Positions 18,540 through 39,842 of a stretch of 64,000 bases of DNA are shown here, one piece after another. The notes under the pieces were generated by a model. It was not told where the DNA came from, searched no databases, and was given only the letters and a program-made list of their open reading frames with translations. The stretch lies in the IMG/VR virus record IMGVR_UViG_3300025909_000005, one strand, 5' to 3'. The DNA is from a virus. Its lineage: Duplodnaviria > Caudoviricetes. A program made the translations under genes and the position numbers. Within the stretch, counting starts at the first letter, position 1. The number at the start of each line of letters is the position of its first letter.

Positions 18540-18619
18540 ATCTGAACCGTTCCGCAACTGAAGGTTATCCCGTTAAGATATCCCCCTTCGATCGCAAGCC
18601 GCAAGGCATTTGTTCAGAT
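18540..18619 (+). ncRNA. Y-like structured RNA candidate
   Basis: ATCTGAAC/GTTCAGAT closing stem; GGTTATC motif; TATC-CCGTTAA-GATA hairpin; GCAA tetraloop. Confidence 0.55.
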
Positions 18620-18621
18620 TT

Positions 18622-18697
18622 GGCCGCTTAGCTCAGTTGGTAGAGCACCGTCTTGATAAGGCGATGGTCATAGGTTCGAATCCTATAGCAGCCACCA
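18622..18697 (+). tRNA. tRNA-Ile(GAT)
   Basis: Loop TTGATAA, ACCA. Confidence 0.9.
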
Positions 18698-18704
18698 AAA
18701 TTCT

Positions 18705-18776
18705 ATCTCGGCCGTGGGCAGCGGACGAACGTCTCCAAAACGTTTAGGCAGAGTTCGACTCTCTGACGGGATGCCA
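18705..18776 (+). tRNA. tRNA-Trp(CCA), second copy with atypical D arm
   Basis: AACGT-CTCCAAA-ACGTT, canonical T arm, GCCA. Confidence 0.7.
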
Positions 18777-18783
18777 AACAAAA

Positions 18784-18859
18784 CCCCTCCAAGCTAATCT
18801 AGTGAAAGCGCCGGTCTGAAAATCCGGAGAGCCAGGAGCGTAACCTGGGGTGGGGACCA
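18784..18859 (+). tRNA. tRNA-Phe(GAA), atypical T-loop AGCGTAA
   Basis: Loop CTGAAAA, ACCA. Confidence 0.8.
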
Positions 18860-18860
18860 T

Positions 18861-18936
18861 GGAGTAGTAACATAGCGGCTAATGTACCTCACTGTCTATG
18901 AGGCTATCGCGGGTTCGAGTCCCGTCTACTCCGCCA
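18861..18936 (+). tRNA. tRNA-Asp(GTC)
   Basis: Loop CTGTCTA, GCCA. Confidence 0.9.
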
Positions 18937-18943
18937 AAATTCT

Positions 18944-19017
18944 GGGTCGTTAATTCAATGGTAGAATCCCGTCTTGATAAGGCGGCGACGAAGGTTCGAT
19001 TCCTTCACGACCTACCA
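18944..19017 (+). tRNA. tRNA-Ile(GAT)
   Basis: Loop TTGATAA, ACCA. Confidence 0.9.
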
Positions 19018-19024
19018 CGTTTCT

Positions 19025-19099
19025 GGGACTGTAATTCAAGTGGTAGAAACCATCCTCTTAAGATGGCATGTGCGATTTCGAGTATCGCCGGTCCCACCA
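19025..19099 (+). tRNA. tRNA-Lys(CTT)
   Basis: Loop CTCTTAA, ACCA. Confidence 0.85.
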
Positions 19100-19106
19100 C
19101 AAATCT

Positions 19107-36654: not shown

Positions 36655-36657
36655 GTC

Positions 36658-36855
36658 ATGTACGTGGGACCCTTCTTCTTTGGTGTCCTACTCCTGGGGC
36701 TGTTCCTCATTGCCCTTGTCCTGTGTCTTGCCTGGGCCCGAAAGATTCCAGGCATGCGCAGGTCGCGGCGCAATGACTGTAACTACGCAGGCCCAGAACG
36801 TCGTCACGCGAAGGTCGTAGAGTTCGAAGTTGATGATACAATAGAAAATGAGTAA
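36658..36855 (+). CDS. Small membrane protein
   Basis: TM followed by GPERRH. Confidence 0.55.
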   Translation: MYVGPFFFGVLLLGLFLIALVLCLAWARKIPGMRRSRRNDCNYAGPERRHAKVVEFEVDDTIENE

Positions 36856-36988
36856 CTATGAGTCTCGAATCTATATCTCTGATCAACGGTCTTTCGATCG
36901 GGCTTGAGCACGTCGATGAGATTCCAGAGGAAGACATTCCTACCTCCATCATTCTAGACTTCTTCATCTTTCGATTCATCTTCTCCGT

Positions 36989-37447
36989 ATGAACTTCCCT
37001 ACCATCGCCATGATCCAAGAAGCGGTTGCCACGCGTGCTGGCATCATTCCGTTCCTGGCAGATGGGCGCGCGCTGTTCTTCGTGTCGTCAGATCCTTCGT
37101 ACGGCGGGCCAGATCCTGCGATTGCGAAGGGGCGAGTTGACCAGGGAGAGACAGTCGTGCAGGCAGCCATTCGTGAGGGAGCTGAAGAGCTCGGCCTTCG
37201 TCCAAGCAACTTTGCAGGCAAGCCTTTCCTCGGCTGGTCTGGCTCGGTTGGCGGCCTTCAGGCAACGTATGAGATGGCCGTCTACTGTGTGCAGGTCAAG
37301 GATGAGAAGGCCTTCAGCAAACCAGGTCACGAGACAGAGCGCACAGTTTGGTACACGCGGGAAGAATTTGCAAAACACGGCCGCCGTTCACACCAGGCAA
37401 TGGCGAATGCAGCCTTCGATAAGATTGACGCGCGCCTTCGAAAATAA
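36989..37447 (+). CDS. NUDIX hydrolase
   Basis: KGRVDQGETVVQAAIREGAEELG Nudix box. Confidence 0.9.
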   Translation: MNFPTIAMIQEAVATRAGIIPFLADGRALFFVSSDPSYGGPDPAIAKGRVDQGETVVQAAIREGAEELGLRPSNFAGKPFLGWSGSVGGLQATYEMAVYCVQVKDEKAFSKPGHETERTVWYTREEFAKHGRRSHQAMANAAFDKIDARLRK

Positions 37448-37544
37448 ATACAGAACAGAACAACTACCGGAAATGGGGTCCTGTTCTACGTGGCAGGACC
37501 CCATTTCTGTTTACAGGACTTCTCTTTCAGGTTATAATCAGACT

Positions 37545-38000
37545 ATGCATGATACAGACGAATCAGGTTACGAAAAGCGAGCCCGAGCTGGGCTGATTCC
37601 CTACATGCGTGGGGAAGATGGCCAGCTCAGCTACCTCATGATGGTCAGCTCCGACCCAAAGTTCGGAGGCCCTCGTCCGATGATCTCGAAAGGGAAGATC
37701 GAAAAGGGTGAGACCAAGCTGGAGGCAGCGGTCCGTGAAGCGGAAGAGGAACTCGGCTTCAAGATGCGAAATGCACGGGGCAACCTGGTGCAGATCGCCG
37801 AGGAGCGGGTGACGCTGCATTCGGGCGCCTATGACCTCGCGGTCTATGGTGCTGAGATCATCGACAAGTACGACTTCGACAAATGGTGCGACGAGACGGA
37901 ATACGTCGTATGGATGACCCTGTCGGAGTTTCGAAACAAGGGTCGCCGAGACCACGTGAAGTACGTGGAAAAGCTAGAAAATATCGTGAGGACATCATGA
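37545..38000 (+). CDS. NUDIX hydrolase (tandem paralog)
   Basis: KGKIEKGETKLEAAVREAEEELG. Confidence 0.9.
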   Translation: MHDTDESGYEKRARAGLIPYMRGEDGQLSYLMMVSSDPKFGGPRPMISKGKIEKGETKLEAAVREAEEELGFKMRNARGNLVQIAEERVTLHSGAYDLAVYGAEIIDKYDFDKWCDETEYVVWMTLSEFRNKGRRDHVKYVEKLENIVRTS

Positions 38001-38614
38001 GCAGGATCTTGACACTTGACGCACAGGGACAGCCACACAGGTGGGTCTCCTACGAAGACGCAATCGTTTACCACGCAAAGAACCTGGTTGCTTGGCAGCT
38101 GGGCGAAGGCGAAGGCGACGTCATGTACCGTGGCGGTGAGAACCGCATCACTGGCCTGACGTCGACGATCACGACTGCACCGATCATCGCCGTGAAGGGC
38201 GAGACAGGCAAGCGCGCGTACAAGGTTCCTTCGCTTACGAACCGTGAACTGTTCCGGCGTGACCGTCACCTGTGCGCGTACTGCGGCAAGGTCTTCTCAG
38301 ACCTGCGTCTGACGCGTGACCACATCATCCCGCAGTCGAAGGGTGGTAAGGACACGTGGATGAACGTGGTCACAGCTTGCGAGAGCTGCAACCACAGGAA
38401 GGACGACCACATGCTCGAGGAAATCGGCATGAAGCTCCTGTACGTGCCGTACACGCCGAACAGGGCTGAAGCGCTCATCCTGGAAAACAGGAACGTTCTC
38501 GCCTGCCAGATGGAGTACCTCAAGTCATTCCTCCCAGACCACTCGCGGGTGTGGGACGACATGAGGGACAAGGAAATCGCTGCGAAGCCGACACGTCACT
38601 CCTTCTACCAGTGA
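37997..38614 (+). CDS. HNH endonuclease (McrA-like)
   Basis: RRDRHLCAYCG..LTRDHIIPQSKGGKDTWMNVVTACESCNHRK. Confidence 0.9.
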   Translation: MSRILTLDAQGQPHRWVSYEDAIVYHAKNLVAWQLGEGEGDVMYRGGENRITGLTSTITTAPIIAVKGETGKRAYKVPSLTNRELFRRDRHLCAYCGKVFSDLRLTRDHIIPQSKGGKDTWMNVVTACESCNHRKDDHMLEEIGMKLLYVPYTPNRAEALILENRNVLACQMEYLKSFLPDHSRVWDDMRDKEIAAKPTRHSFYQ

Positions 38615-38749
38615 TCTCAAGCGCCATCACCGGCGCTTCTGCCGGAGCCATCTTCGCATCAGGGCAACGCCTTGGTGTAGTGGTGGCTTCGGCCATTTTG
38701 ACCGCAATTTTGAACTGCTACTGTTTTCACCTTTCTAGAAAGAAGCACC

Positions 38750-39316
38750 ATGGATCTTGAGCAACGAATCGCTACCATCGTCGAGCGCACGCGGACATTG
38801 TGGCTCATCTTCGCTCTTGCCCTGTCAGCAGTCGTCATTGGCTTCTGCCCGCCATGGGCTTGGATCCTACTCCTTCCAGCCTTCTACCTCACGTACTACG
38901 CCGCCCTCGTCATTGCGACCCTCGTGCTGGCGTCGCAGGTGACTGCGGAGGAGTTCCATGAGAACGAGAGGCAACAGCAGGAAATGCGAGAGCGCGTGCA
39001 GCAGCTCGACCCCGATGCTCTCGACGAACTCAACGCGTACCTCGACACGGGCATCAAGGAGCCTGACGAAAAGCTGCTGAAGCTGATGGAGAAGGCAGGA
39101 CTCACGGAGGTTCAGATCAACCCGATCGAGGAGCACTCCGAACCGCCATTCGGCTTCTTCGATGGCAAGCCGCTCTACGACTGGATAGTGCTGAAGGGTC
39201 AGGGCCGATTCGAGTACGCTGGCCTGAAGCAGGACTTCGGCAAGGTCTGCCCCAAGGGGAAGATCTGCGCTGACATCGATGGGATCGTGTACATGCGCGA
39301 TCAGCAACCTGCGTAA
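38750..39316 (+). CDS. Membrane-anchored hypothetical protein
   Basis: Two TM segments plus soluble domain. Confidence 0.65.
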   Translation: MDLEQRIATIVERTRTLWLIFALALSAVVIGFCPPWAWILLLPAFYLTYYAALVIATLVLASQVTAEEFHENERQQQEMRERVQQLDPDALDELNAYLDTGIKEPDEKLLKLMEKAGLTEVQINPIEEHSEPPFGFFDGKPLYDWIVLKGQGRFEYAGLKQDFGKVCPKGKICADIDGIVYMRDQQPA

Positions 39317-39424
39317 AGTTGATGCAAACTGCGCGTTCAGCGCTTATAATGCATATATAGATTGATGCTACGGCAGAAACCGCTAGCACATTGAGTGGGT
39401 CCCTGGAGACCCACAAAGAACTAA

Positions 39425-39512
39425 GCGACCGAAAGTTAGACGATTATCTTGCAGATACGTTGGTGTCCCCGGACATCATGTTACCCGTCCAACATCTCTT
39501 TGTCGCCCTTTT
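39425..39512 (+). ncRNA. Y RNA candidate
   Basis: GCGAC-C-GA / TTGTCGC bulged-C helix (compensatory variant of the GUCCGA/UUGAC Ro site); GATTATC; upstream of Ro60. Confidence 0.7.
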
Positions 39513-39542
39513 CTCAAGTTCTAATTTCAACCCCAAACAATC

Positions 39543-39842
39543 GTCTCACTGACGAACCGCCGCGACTTGGTTATCCATTCTACGGCAACCTTTCATTGTC
39601 CTCGGATGATGACGTGCATCGAGATACGTTAACTCGGTTAGGTGCCTGTGCCGAATTGCAGGATATTGCTGATCGAAATCAGATAGGACACCAGTAGCCG
39701 AATCTCCCGGTGTAGGAAGTCATTAACCTCAGGTGCCTGGCCGTCGGTCGGGAATTTCTTTTGAGGCATGTAGGTGAATCAACCGCGAAAGCGGGCCACC
39801 GTTCCGAACTTTCCAAACGCATTTTTTGTTTGTCAGTGAGAC
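39543..39842 (+). ncRNA. 300-nt closed structured RNA upstream of Ro60
   Basis: GTCTCACTGACGAAC / GTTTGTCAGTGAGAC 15-bp terminal helix; GGTTATC; two GAAA tetraloops. Confidence 0.65.

What the first reader, a model, noticed from the sequence alone, without database searches (positions are those of the whole stretch)
18540..39842. Dispersed family of Y-like small RNAs sharing an (G/A)TTATC motif, spread across the tRNA array and the Ro60 locus
Seen: non-tRNA closed stem structures at 18540, 19520, 19761, 20367, 39425 and 39543, plus the two tRNA inserts, all contain GGTTATC, GATTATC or CGTTATC (at 18563, 19573, 19779, 20415, 20795, 24567, 39442, 39569). The 19520 RNA and the 24490 insert share TCGATCT..GTTCCCT..GGAACCGC..TTGAT.GTTATCC. 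Several have TTTGTC/TTTGTT 3' strands or tRNA T-arms. Established: Ro60 binds Y RNAs, and bacterial YrlA RNAs mimic tRNA. Inference: one phage Ro60 serves about eight Y-like RNAs co-transcribed with tRNAs, possibly as nuclease decoys or tethers for tRNA repair or degradation.
Basis: partly seen in the sequence, partly recalled or inferred. Interest (0 to 1): 0.75.

Follow-up and report, generated by a model that had tools for sequence, protein, structure and literature searches.

The report
Ro60 partner RNAs scattered among phage tRNAs
A giant soil phage that encodes the RNA-binding ring protein Ro60 carries eight small RNAs with the docking "handle" typical of Ro60's partner Y RNAs: two lie beside the Ro60 gene, five in tRNA-sized slots of the tRNA array and one is a solitary gene, and two of the eight are complete tRNAs with the handle grafted into the anticodon stem.

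Summary

RTTATC alone is not enriched (20 found, 23 expected). It is one half of a composite box, CCG-N8/9-YG-RUUAUC, that follows a helix ending in AC. The partner strand of that helix is preceded by UUUG.

- This box is the GNCGAA plus YUAY signature already published for bacterial YrlA-type Y RNAs.
- 80 bacterial Ro60 loci: 56 hits on the Ro60 strand, 1 on the other strand.
- 32 Ro60-encoding phage records: 49 hits against 1 for a backwards control.
- Six TROVE-lacking, tRNA-rich phages: 2 hits.
- Both helices of the handle covary strongly.

In relatives the same handles also lie in tRNA arrays. One has 12 copies 80-100 kb from its Ro60 gene. Mycobacteriophage Colt has two unannotated ones.

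A hairpin-closed, permuted handle sits inside tRNA bodies. Removing it gives tRNA-Arg(ACG) and tRNA-Met(CAU).

Ro60 binding, expression and function are untested. Y RNAs are known. The dispersal into tRNA arrays and the tRNA-embedded handles look undescribed in the papers I could search, although this scan has noted related phage Ro60/tRNA-array RNAs on other DNA.

The parts
18540..18619 (+). E1: minimal stand-alone Y-like RNA (80 nt). Lower stem 18540-47/18612-19, CCG at 18547-49, upper stem around GAAGG/CCUUC, GGUUAUC at 18563-69 opening the apical loop, extra GCC-GCAA-GGC hairpin, then AUUUGU.
   Evidence: Four orthologues in relatives have covarying lower and upper stems. CM R1 hits its upper part. 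It fills a tRNA-sized slot between tRNA-His (ends 18532) and tRNA-Ile (starts 18622).
19520..19588 (+). E2: acceptor-like stem GGGGC/GCCCC followed by ACC. It encloses a permuted handle: upper stem 19539-43/19570-74, CUUUC, lower hairpin GUUCC-CUAU-GGAAC (19548-61), CCG, then GUUAUC at 19574-79.
   Evidence: (the MFE fold gives this hairpin). It shares blocks with E7.
19761..19850 (+). E3: YrlA-like stand-alone Y RNA. Lower stem UGCAAC/GUUGCA, CCG, upper stem GUCGG/CCGAC, GGUUAUC at 19779-85, T arm at 19793-19809, GCAA-capped hairpin, then UUUUUGU.
   Evidence: CM R1 gives a full-length hit of 16.1 bits.
20368..20430 (+). E4: acceptor-like stem CCCGC/GCGGG followed by G-CCA. It encloses GCCGAAUG (an exact GNCGAANG) and GAUUAUC at 20415-21. 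The handle helix is only about 3 bp, so this is the weakest member.
   Evidence: fold z-score -0.05. No orthologue was found.
20723..20847 (+). E6: tRNA-Arg(ACG) body with a CCA end. A 50-nt insert at 20750-20799, between positions 27 and 28, is a permuted handle: UUUUU-GUCGC-GUAA-GUGAC-CG-N8-CGGUUAUC.
   Evidence: Rfam tRNA 38.9 bits with the insert in place. ARAGORN calls a 75-nt tRNA-Arg(acg) once 20750-20799 is removed. An orthologue in L068 has compensatory changes in the acceptor stem, T stem and handle upper stem.
24490..24620 (+). E7: solitary tRNA-Met(CAU)-type body with a 55-nt insert at 24517-24571. The insert is a permuted handle: UUUU-GUUCCC-UCG-GGGAAC-CG..UUGGUUAUC. A terminator-like hairpin follows.
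   Evidence: ARAGORN calls tRNA-Met(cat) after the deletion. The orthologue in L064 keeps the CUCAUAA loop and its anticodon stem covaries.
39425..39506 (+). Y-A: compact Y RNA 386 nt upstream of the Ro60 start. GCGAC-C-GAAAG opposite CUCUUU-GUCGC, upper stem GUUaGACG/CGUCcAAC, GAUUAUC at 39442-48.
   Evidence: It is conserved upstream of Ro60 in L001, L003 and L013/L019, with compensatory changes in both stems.
39543..39842 (+). Y-B: 300-nt multi-domain Y-like RNA ending about 50 nt before the Ro60 ATG. 15-bp terminal helix, AACCGCCGCG..UUGGUUAUCC box, 5-bp upper stem UUGG/CCAA, 3' UUUUUUGUUUGUC.
   Evidence: RNAalifold on 7 orthologues gives 23 pairs, 17 of them with changes on both sides.
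39892..41508 (+). Ro60 (TROVE + vWA) gene. The likely start is the ATG at 39892. A terminator-like hairpin lies at 41512-31.
   Evidence: Pfam TROVE 4.2e-23 and vWA_Ro60 2.7e-44. PDB 2NVO 2.8e-95 and 1YVP 1e-90. The start is inferred from alignment A1. Terminator.
18291..22543 (+). tRNA array that hosts E1-E4 and E6: 26 ARAGORN tRNAs plus 4 more matches to Rfam's tRNA model at or above its gathering score (one of them E6 itself). No +-strand terminator-like site lies between 18291 and 22024.

Best explanation
The eight elements are a phage family of Y-RNA-type non-coding RNAs. They share one Ro60 docking handle.

The handle has these parts:
- a lower helix whose last pairs are A-U and C-G;
- CG(N) on the 5' strand, opposite UUU on the 3' strand;
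- a short upper helix;
- an unpaired UUAUC that opens a variable cargo domain.

Shown by comparison: the handle is the same composite box that flanks Ro60 genes in bacteria and other phages.

The handle comes in two topologies:
- Ends at the handle: the classical Y RNA form (E1, E3, Y-A, Y-B).
- Handle closed by a tetraloop and inserted in a tRNA or acceptor-stem body, so that the ends are tRNA ends (E2, E4, E6, E7).

Inferred mechanism:
1. The array copies are made as part of the tRNA precursor. They sit in tRNA-sized slots, 5-8 nt after one tRNA's CCA end and 2-9 nt before the next tRNA.
2. They are released by the enzymes that process tRNAs.
3. The single phage Ro60 ring binds each handle on its outer face.
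4. The cargo (T arm, whole tRNA, or the 250-nt domain of Y-B) brings Ro60 to tRNA-handling proteins or exonucleases. Alternatively it marks particular tRNA look-alikes (Arg-ACG, Met-CAU) for Ro60.

My preferred, speculative purpose: a tRNA surveillance or protection RNP used during infection, acting against host tRNA-cleaving defences or together with the phage RNA ligase.
For: 1. Composite motif.
- Window: 8 found against 1.9 expected.
- 32 Ro60+ phage records (3.9 Mb): 49 hits against 1 for the backwards control. 47 of the 49 are on the Ro60 strand.
- 80 bacterial Ro60 loci (461 kb): 56 hits on the Ro60 strand, 1 on the opposite strand, 4 backwards. 36 loci are positive.
- Six TROVE-negative tRNA-rich phages (1.10 Mb): 2 hits. 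The one extra hit in that panel lies 2.5 kb from a TROVE gene in RHph_TM30.

2. Match to described Y RNAs. The predicted YrlA and its neighbouring Y-like RNA upstream of Ro in mycobacteriophage Colt read GCCGAGAG..GGUUACC and GCCGAAGG..GGUUAUC. This is the published GNCGAAN0-1G plus YUAY (PMC4201824).

3. Structure.
- 39 of 60 motif copies have a complementary strand of 5 bp or more preceded by UU. Controls give 4 (reversed) and 7.4 (shuffled). All four Watson-Crick pair types occur at stem positions 3-8.
- A covariance-model alignment of 35 copies is 86.8% paired against 59.4% in shuffles, with 148 double-sided changes against 49.5 (0 of 500 shuffles reach it). Slid controls give 36-50%.
- Y-B: 17 of 23 pairs covary on a MAFFT alignment that was not fitted to the structure.

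4. Dispersal recurs.
- G004 has 12 copies in tRNA arrays at 128-147 kb, and none within 3 kb of its Ro60 at about 48 kb.
- G001, G002 and G003 have array copies, including orthologues of E1, E6 and E7.
- Colt has two in unannotated gaps of its tRNA array.

5. tRNA-embedded handles.
- Removing the insert gives tRNA-Arg(acg) and tRNA-Met(cat).
- All the hairpin-closed handles examined sit in tRNA bodies. Three of them lie just downstream of Ro60 in L020.
- The same design lies beside bacterial Ro60 genes, for example L115 (UUU loop) and L093 (CAU loop).

6. The Ro60 protein is canonical.
Against: - No experiment or read data show that any element is transcribed, processed or bound by Ro60.
- Rfam's YrlA model does not hit the elements. 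Its only weak matches in the array span tandem tRNAs.
- Only Y-A and E4 carry CGAA, the best-documented Ro60-contact motif. The others have CCG followed by C, U or G.
- Six of the eight lie 15-21 kb from Ro60. The published criterion for calling a Y RNA is adjacency within 4 kb.
- E4's handle helix is only about 3 bp and its fold is no better than shuffles.
- The TROVE-negative panel is small (six genomes) and of different hosts and base composition.
- The covariance-model alignment leans towards the model's own structure.
Confidence: 0.75

Rival explanations
1. The handle is recognised by some other factor of tRNA metabolism, such as a processing nuclease, a modification enzyme or the phage's own RNase P. 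Its frequent position next to Ro60 genes would then be a by-product of Ro60 genes lying near tRNA genes.
For: - Most copies in this phage and in G004 are in tRNA arrays, not beside Ro60.
- The copies occupy tRNA-sized slots.
- An unchecked note of this scan reports a phage RNase P RNA elsewhere in this genome.
Against: - In bacteria the motif occurs 56 times on the Ro60 strand within 2.5 kb of Ro60 genes and once on the other strand.
- Many phages carry 2-5 tandem minimal copies directly beside Ro60 with no tRNA body.
- The helix-CCG/UUG geometry matches the Ro60-contacted GGUCCGA/UUGAC helix of animal Y RNAs and the motif of Rsr-bound YrlA and YrlB.
Confidence: 0.1
2. The 50-55 nt inserts in the two tRNA bodies are intervening sequences or mobile insertions. 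They would be cut out to give normal tRNAs, perhaps using the phage RNA ligase, and their likeness to Y RNAs would be incidental to that role.
For: - Precise removal restores a perfect anticodon stem and a standard tRNA.
- The window encodes an Rnl2-type RNA ligase at 10166-11257.
Against: - The insert lies at position 27/28, not in the anticodon loop, and is far too small for a group I intron.
- I did not look for a splicing endonuclease gene or a bulge-helix-bulge motif, so their absence is not shown.
- The inserts keep the full handle, with covariation between orthologues.
- The same design lies right beside Ro60 in L020 and in bacteria.
- L025 has the handle in place of the anticodon arm, where splicing could not give a tRNA.
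Confidence: 0.08
3. The spacers are decayed tRNA genes or neutral filler. The shared box would reflect recent duplication within the array, not function.
For: - E4 folds no better than shuffled sequence, and E3 only marginally better.
- A neighbouring spacer (20512-20634) looks like a scrambled tRNA without the box.
Against: - Outside the box the copies are unrelated in sequence, yet they keep both helices through compensatory changes.
- The box is conserved in phages whose Ro60 is only 37-50% identical, and in bacteria.
Confidence: 0.03

Closest known systems
Bacterial and mycobacteriophage YrlA/YrlB Y RNAs bound by Ro60/Rsr (Chen et al. 2014, PMC4201824; Rfam RF02553)
   Same: - Terminal helix carrying a GNCGAA-type motif on its 5' strand.
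- YUAY (here RUUAUC) about 10 nt further on, opening the cargo domain.
- tRNA-like cargo (T arm).
- Encoded on the Ro60 strand, with more than one RNA per Ro60.
- The Colt YrlA and its neighbour carry the same composite box.
   Different: - The Rfam model does not detect the elements.
- The helix ends in AAC|CG, not GGC|CG, and CGAA is mostly absent.
- Six of the eight lie 15-21 kb away, five of them in tRNA-array slots and one (E7) as a solitary gene. The published survey kept only candidates within 4 kb of Ro60 and discarded matches over tandem tRNAs.
- Four copies have the handle closed by a loop and the RNA ends in a tRNA or acceptor stem. This is the reverse of YrlA's permuted order.
Thermus phage phiLo Yrl1/Yrl2 with phiRo60 (PMC12135203)
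   Same: - A phage Ro60 with two Y-like RNAs directly upstream of the gene.
- A stem-bulge-stem layout with a CGAA motif.
- Binding shown by EMSA and cryo-EM, and a ternary complex with host PNPase.
   Different: - Only the two gene-adjacent RNAs are described there.
- No tRNA-array copies or tRNA-bodied forms are reported.
- I did not compare the sequences.
Animal Y RNAs and nematode sbRNAs (review PMC4726728)
   Same: - Lower stem with the ..C-CGA / UUG.. geometry contacted by Ro60.
- An internal loop, then an upper stem.
- A conserved UUAUC at the start of the loop domain.
   Different: - No detectable sequence homology beyond these short boxes.
- The review calls the bacterial RNAs not homologous to the vertebrate Y RNA clades.
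- In animals UUAUC is tied to DNA replication activity, not to Ro60 binding.
- The likeness may be convergence.
Bas63 gp130 (Ro60-shaped protein upstream of a tRNA stretch; PhageMaP preprint 10.1101/2024.10.10.617714)
   Same: - The authors speculate that some 'tRNA genes' next to a phage Ro60-like gene are really Y RNAs.
- The protein counters a host defence (Ppl).
   Different: - No RNAs, motif or structure were defined there.
- That protein is only structurally Ro60-like. Here the Ro60 is canonical and the RNAs are defined and compared across genomes.

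Membership tests
Y RNA (Ro60 partner RNAs; bacterial YrlA/YrlB class) | A helix whose 5' strand carries the Ro60-contact motif (GGUCCGA in animals, GNCGAAN0-1G in bacteria), opposite a UUG-type 3' strand. | tested here: met
   - All the stand-alone copies have helix-AC|CG opposite UUUG-helix.
- Exact GNCGAANG occurs in E4. It also occurs by coincidence inside the upper stem of E6.
- Y-A has GACCGAAAG.
- The other copies are variant (CCG followed by C, U or G).
Y RNA (Ro60 partner RNAs; bacterial YrlA/YrlB class) | A conserved YUAY about 10 nt after the contact motif, at the start of the variable or V region. 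| tested here: met
   RUUAUC is present in 8 of 8 elements. Spacing is fixed at CCG-N8/9-YG in 6 of the 8. It is longer in E1 and one base shorter (N7) in E2. The R pairs with a partner that changes with it (L003).
Y RNA (Ro60 partner RNAs; bacterial YrlA/YrlB class) | Encoded within a few kb of the Ro60 gene, on the same strand. | tested here: inconclusive
   Met for Y-A and Y-B, which end 386 and about 50 nt upstream of the ATG. The six other copies are on the same strand but 15-21 kb away. In relatives the distance reaches 80-100 kb.
Y RNA (Ro60 partner RNAs; bacterial YrlA/YrlB class) | The same handle is statistically tied to Ro60 genes in other genomes. | tested here: met
   - Bacterial Ro60 loci: 56 hits on the Ro60 strand against 1 on the other.
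- Ro60+ phages: 49 against 1 for the backwards control.
- TROVE-negative phages: 2 hits in 1.10 Mb.
Y RNA (Ro60 partner RNAs; bacterial YrlA/YrlB class) | Physical association with Ro60. | not testable with these tools
   This needs RIP, CLIP or EMSA.
YrlA in the strict sense (Rfam RF02553) | A permuted tRNA-like domain (V, T arm, closed acceptor stem-loop, D arm) between the two handle strands, detectable by the family model. | tested here: not met
   No YrlA hit on any element at E up to 5-10. E3 has a T arm and a capped hairpin but no D arm. E1 and Y-A have no tRNA-like part.
tRNA (for E6 and E7) | A cloverleaf with acceptor, D, anticodon and T arms and a CCA end. | tested here: met
   Rfam tRNA 38.9 bits for E6 with the insert in place. 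ARAGORN calls tRNA-Arg(acg) and tRNA-Met(cat) after the insert is removed. Whether they are charged or decode cannot be tested here.
Ro60 / TROVE protein | A TROVE HEAT-repeat ring plus a C-terminal vWA domain. | tested here: met
   Pfam PF05731 and PF25045. Full-length matches to 2NVO, 9NEN and 1YVP at E 1e-90 to 3e-95.
tRNA intron (group I or protein-spliced) | An insert in or next to the anticodon loop, with either a group I core (over 200 nt) or a bulge-helix-bulge junction. | tested here: not met
   The insert is 50-55 nt and lies at position 27/28 within the anticodon stem. Rfam reports no intron family there. A bulge-helix-bulge junction was not searched for formally.

The most novel reading that the evidence does not exclude
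Handle-tagged tRNAs may be a widespread and undescribed class. In phage tRNA arrays and beside bacterial Ro60 genes, otherwise complete tRNAs of several identities carry a Ro60 docking arm at position 27/28. The anticodon loops seen are Arg-ACG, Met-CAU, Asn-GUU, Lys-UUU, Thr-UGU and Gly-UCC. On this reading Ro60 works directly on or with specific tRNAs, for instance by shielding or sensing them when host anticodon nucleases attack. YrlA would then be the permuted version of the same design. The shared helix-CCG/UUG geometry and the UUAUC box would point to one ancestral Y RNA handle from phages to vertebrates.
Probability: 0.3. Interest if true: 0.85.

Novelty: new variant of a known kind. 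Interest (0 to 1): 0.72.

Why it matters
What Ro60 does in bacteria and phages is still poorly understood, and its RNA partners have been sought only next to the gene.

This finding changes three things:
- A simple composite handle finds many more partners, including copies tens of kilobases away inside tRNA arrays.
- One Ro60 may serve eight to twelve different RNAs.
- Some of those RNAs are whole tRNAs with a docking arm.

That links Ro60 directly to tRNA biology during infection. It also gives concrete RNAs to test. Two of them are in the culturable Mycobacterium smegmatis phages of the Bxz1/Colt group, so the idea can be tested at the bench now.

It also shows that spacers in phage tRNA arrays, usually left unannotated, can be genes.

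Tried and rejected
- **Rfam, gathering and E-value modes.** No Y_RNA or YrlA match on any element. The weak YrlA matches at 19127-19246, 19297-19410 and 19888-19986 span tandem tRNAs, an artefact the YrlA paper itself warns about.
- **RTTATC alone as a motif.** Not enriched window-wide.
- **AACC pairing with GGUU as a hairpin inside the box.** Rejected: GAUU variants keep ACC.
- **Megablast of the Ro60 locus against cultured phages.** No match.
- **Expression.** One metatranscriptome run held 7% of the sampled words. When laid, its only exact contig covers 21060-21300. The other pieces are other organisms' tRNAs. So nothing can be said about transcription of the elements.
- **A variant of E6 in a DNA run (X5).** It was too divergent to score for covariation.
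- **CM R1.** It is weak on this window: E3 16.1 bits, the upper part of E1 15.9 bits, and Y-A not found. Its third hit, at 12225-12278, lies inside a 249-aa minus-strand ORF and is taken as chance.
- **MAFFT alignment of 18 minimal copies.** It did not align the 3' strands, so the pair counts were made on the CM-fitted alignment and by an independent script.
- **First genome-contig scan with the single Ro60 protein.** It found nothing. The profile scan worked.
- **Two Wolin-lab reviews (PMC10870794, PMC6047535) and the supplementary tables of the YrlA paper.** None is held. I therefore could not check whether array-encoded phage copies were ever listed.

Full report
**Setting.** The window comes from an uncultured jumbo phage found in rhizosphere metagenomes. 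It has no near match among cultured phages. Its closest relatives are IMG/VR contigs of 257-360 kb whose Ro60 is 50-74% identical. The window holds a tRNA array at 18291-22543 plus outliers: 27 ARAGORN tRNAs and several more by Rfam. It also holds a canonical Ro60 gene with TROVE and vWA_Ro60 domains, matching D. radiodurans Rsr at E 2.8e-95 and X. laevis Ro60 at 1e-90. Alignment with relatives puts the start at the ATG at 39892.

**Observation.** Every coordinate in the finding checks out. RTTATC by itself is not enriched: 20 sites against 23 expected. In each case the motif is preceded, at a nearly fixed distance, by CCG. ACCG-N4-24-RTTATC occurs 8 times against 1.9 expected, and seven of the eight are the claimed elements. 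E4 has GCCG.

**What the box is.**
- The YrlA paper describes a GNCGAAN0-1G Ro60-contact motif near the 5' end and a conserved YUAY that opens the V region (PMC4201824).
- In mycobacteriophage Colt, the predicted YrlA and the next RNA upstream of Ro read GCCGAGAG..GGUUACC and GCCGAAGG..GGUUAUC, on stems whose 3' strands follow CAUGUC.
- In 32 Ro60-encoding phage records this pattern occurs 49 times against once for the backwards control. 47 of the 49 are on the Ro60 strand.
- In 80 bacterial Ro60 loci reached with a Ro60 profile, it occurs 56 times on the Ro60 strand, once on the other strand and 4 times backwards. The consensus is GGGCCG-N8/9-YGGUUAYC.
- In seven tRNA-rich cultured phages there are three hits. 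One lies 2.5 kb from a TROVE gene in Rhizobium phage RHph_TM30. The six TROVE-negative genomes (1.10 Mb) hold two. This negative panel is small.

**Structure of the handle.**
- The bases before CCG pair with a strand that is preceded by UUU. 39 of 60 copies have 5 bp or more preceded by UU, against 4 (reversed) and 7.4 (shuffled) in controls. The first pair is always C-G, the second A-U or G-C/G-U, and positions 3-8 use all pair types.
- The N8-YG stretch forms an upper stem with the bases ahead of the UUU. UUAUC is left unpaired at the mouth of a variable domain.
- A small covariance model built from eight minimal copies found 35 copies in 26 sources, all in orientation with Ro60 or with the tRNAs.
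- On that alignment 86.8% of cells pair against 59.4% in shuffles, with 148 double-sided changes against 49.5 (0 of 500 shuffles reach it). Slid controls give 36-50%. The alignment is fitted to the model, so the script and the next result serve as independent checks.
- RNAalifold on a plain MAFFT alignment of seven orthologues of the 300-nt RNA gives a 12-bp lower stem and a 5-bp upper stem, with 17 of 23 pairs changing on both sides. When GGUUAUC becomes GAUUAUC (L003), the partner changes from C to U.
- The geometry is helix-C|CG(A) opposite UUG-helix, then an internal loop, an upper stem and a loop beginning UUAUC. This is the geometry of animal Y RNAs, whose loops also keep a UUAUC (PMC4726728). 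I treat that likeness as a lead, not as proof of common descent.

**Members in the window.**
- E1 (18540-18619) and Y-A (39425-39506) are minimal Y RNAs. E1 has four orthologues with fully compensated stems.
- E3 (19761-19850) adds a T arm.
- Y-B (39543-39842) carries a 250-nt cargo.
- E6 and E7 are different. The lower helix is closed by a tetraloop (GUAA in E6, UCG in E7), so the handle is circularly permuted and forms an extra arm.
- Deleting 20750-20799 turns E6 into a 75-nt tRNA-Arg(ACG). Deleting 24517-24571 turns E7 into tRNA-Met(CAU). An earlier first-reader note of this scan gave the E6 deletion coordinates, and I tested them.
- Their orthologues in G002 and G001 keep the anticodon loops and show compensatory changes in the acceptor stem, the T stem and the handle stems.
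- E2 and E4 have the permuted handle inside a bare acceptor-like stem that ends ACC or GCCA. E4's handle helix is only about 3 bp, and it is the least certain member.
- The array copies sit 5-8 nt after the preceding tRNA's CCA and 2-9 nt before the next tRNA. That is the same spacing as between tRNAs. It suggests release by tRNA-processing enzymes, but this is inference.

**Relatives.**
- The same arrangement recurs. G004 has 12 copies, all on the tRNA strand in arrays at 128-147 kb, and none within 3 kb of its Ro60 gene at about 48 kb.
- G001-G003 have array copies as well as the two upstream of Ro60.
- Other phages carry up to five tandem minimal copies beside Ro60.
- Colt has two more Y-like RNAs in unannotated gaps of its tRNA array, with stems GCCAAG/CUUGGC and GCAAG/CUUGC and T-arm-like hairpins.
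- Every hairpin-closed handle I examined lies in a tRNA body between the D arm and the anticodon stem. Three of them sit directly downstream of Ro60 in L020. In one (L025) the handle replaces the anticodon arm.
- The same design occurs beside bacterial Ro60 genes, for example L115, L093 and L143.

**Interpretation.** The best reading is a family of Y-RNA-type partners for the single phage Ro60. The family spreads into the tRNA arrays and exists in two topologies.
- Shown: motif identity with Ro60-linked RNAs, covarying helices, recurrence across distant phages and bacteria, and tRNA bodies under structural selection.
- Inferred: transcription with the tRNAs, Ro60 binding and any function.
- Context: an Rnl2-type RNA ligase at 10166-11257, plus NUDIX, HNH and RNase H-like genes beside Ro60. 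This fits an RNA surveillance or repair role, as proposed for jumbo-phage TROVE proteins (PMC7824862). Phage phiLo's Ro60-Yrl-PNPase complex (PMC12135203) and the anti-defence phenotype of the Ro60-shaped Bas63 gp130 (preprint 10.1101/2024.10.10.617714) give precedents.

**Novelty.** Y RNAs, phage Y RNAs and the two sequence boxes are known. In the papers I could search I found no description of handle RNAs dispersed in tRNA arrays far from Ro60, nor of tRNAs carrying the handle as an inserted arm. The YrlA survey kept only candidates within 4 kb of Ro60 and discarded matches over tandem tRNAs. The Bas63 preprint only speculates. This scan has noted related Ro60/tRNA-array RNA families in other phages. 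Those notes are unchecked leads and were not used as evidence.

Noticed in passing
window 20512-20634 (+): A 123-nt spacer closed by UGAUGA/UCAUCG with two T-arm-like hairpins (GGGUUCGAUUCC and GGGUUCAAUUCCC) and no handle box. It is a tRNA-like RNA of unknown kind.
   Followed up: partly
window 18784-18856 and 20287-20362 (+): Two odd tRNAs. The first is found only by Rfam (37 bits) and has a non-standard T loop. For the second, ARAGORN reports a two-base 'anticodon' (a short loop).
   Followed up: no
L070:821-939 and L070:1897-2005 (Mycobacterium phage Colt, record 94320-94438 and 95396-95504): Two unannotated Y-like RNAs in gaps of the Bixzunavirus tRNA array: GCCGAC../GCCGAACG..GRUUAUC, T-arm-like hairpin, 3' CAUGUC plus complementary strand. 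They lie about 36 kb from the Ro gene.
   Followed up: partly
L062, L063 (G004:127.5-149 kb) and L010: A 360-kb relative has 12 handle RNAs in its tRNA arrays and none within 3 kb of its Ro60 gene, 80-100 kb away.
   Followed up: yes
L115:~2090-2300, L093:~330-520, L143:~1070-1450: Beside bacterial (Chloroflexota, Armatimonadota) Ro60 genes lie tRNA bodies that carry the hairpin-closed handle between the D arm and an anticodon stem-loop (loops CUUUUAA, CUCAUAA, CUAUUAA).
   Followed up: partly
L020:5250-5920: Three handle-bearing tRNA bodies in tandem directly downstream of Ro60, in a phage whose Ro60 is 40% identical.
   Followed up: partly
window 39345-39362 (+): TATAAT followed by GCATATATA, conserved upstream of Y-A in the window, L001 and L003. 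A similar TGTTACAATG / TGTTATAATGCAT lies after E6 and in a relative's array. It may be a phage promoter.
   Followed up: no
window 45707-50710 (+): A PrkA - DUF444 - SpoVR-like three-gene set with strong Pfam matches. This is a bacterial stress or sporulation-associated operon, which seems unusual cargo for a phage.
   Followed up: no
window 10166-11257 (+): An Rnl2-type RNA ligase gene (PF09414) 7 kb upstream of the tRNA array.
   Followed up: no
window 39826-39891: The longest Ro60 ORF starts at TTG 39826. Conservation and a GGAAA ribosome-binding-like site point to ATG 39892. The upstream part overlaps the 3' strand of Y-B.
   Followed up: partly
L078 (contig binned as Acinetobacter sp. 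MAG): A 36.6-kb contig with a Ro60 67% identical to the window's and the same Y-A/Y-B pair upstream. It is probably a fragment of a related phage binned with a bacterial genome.
   Followed up: no
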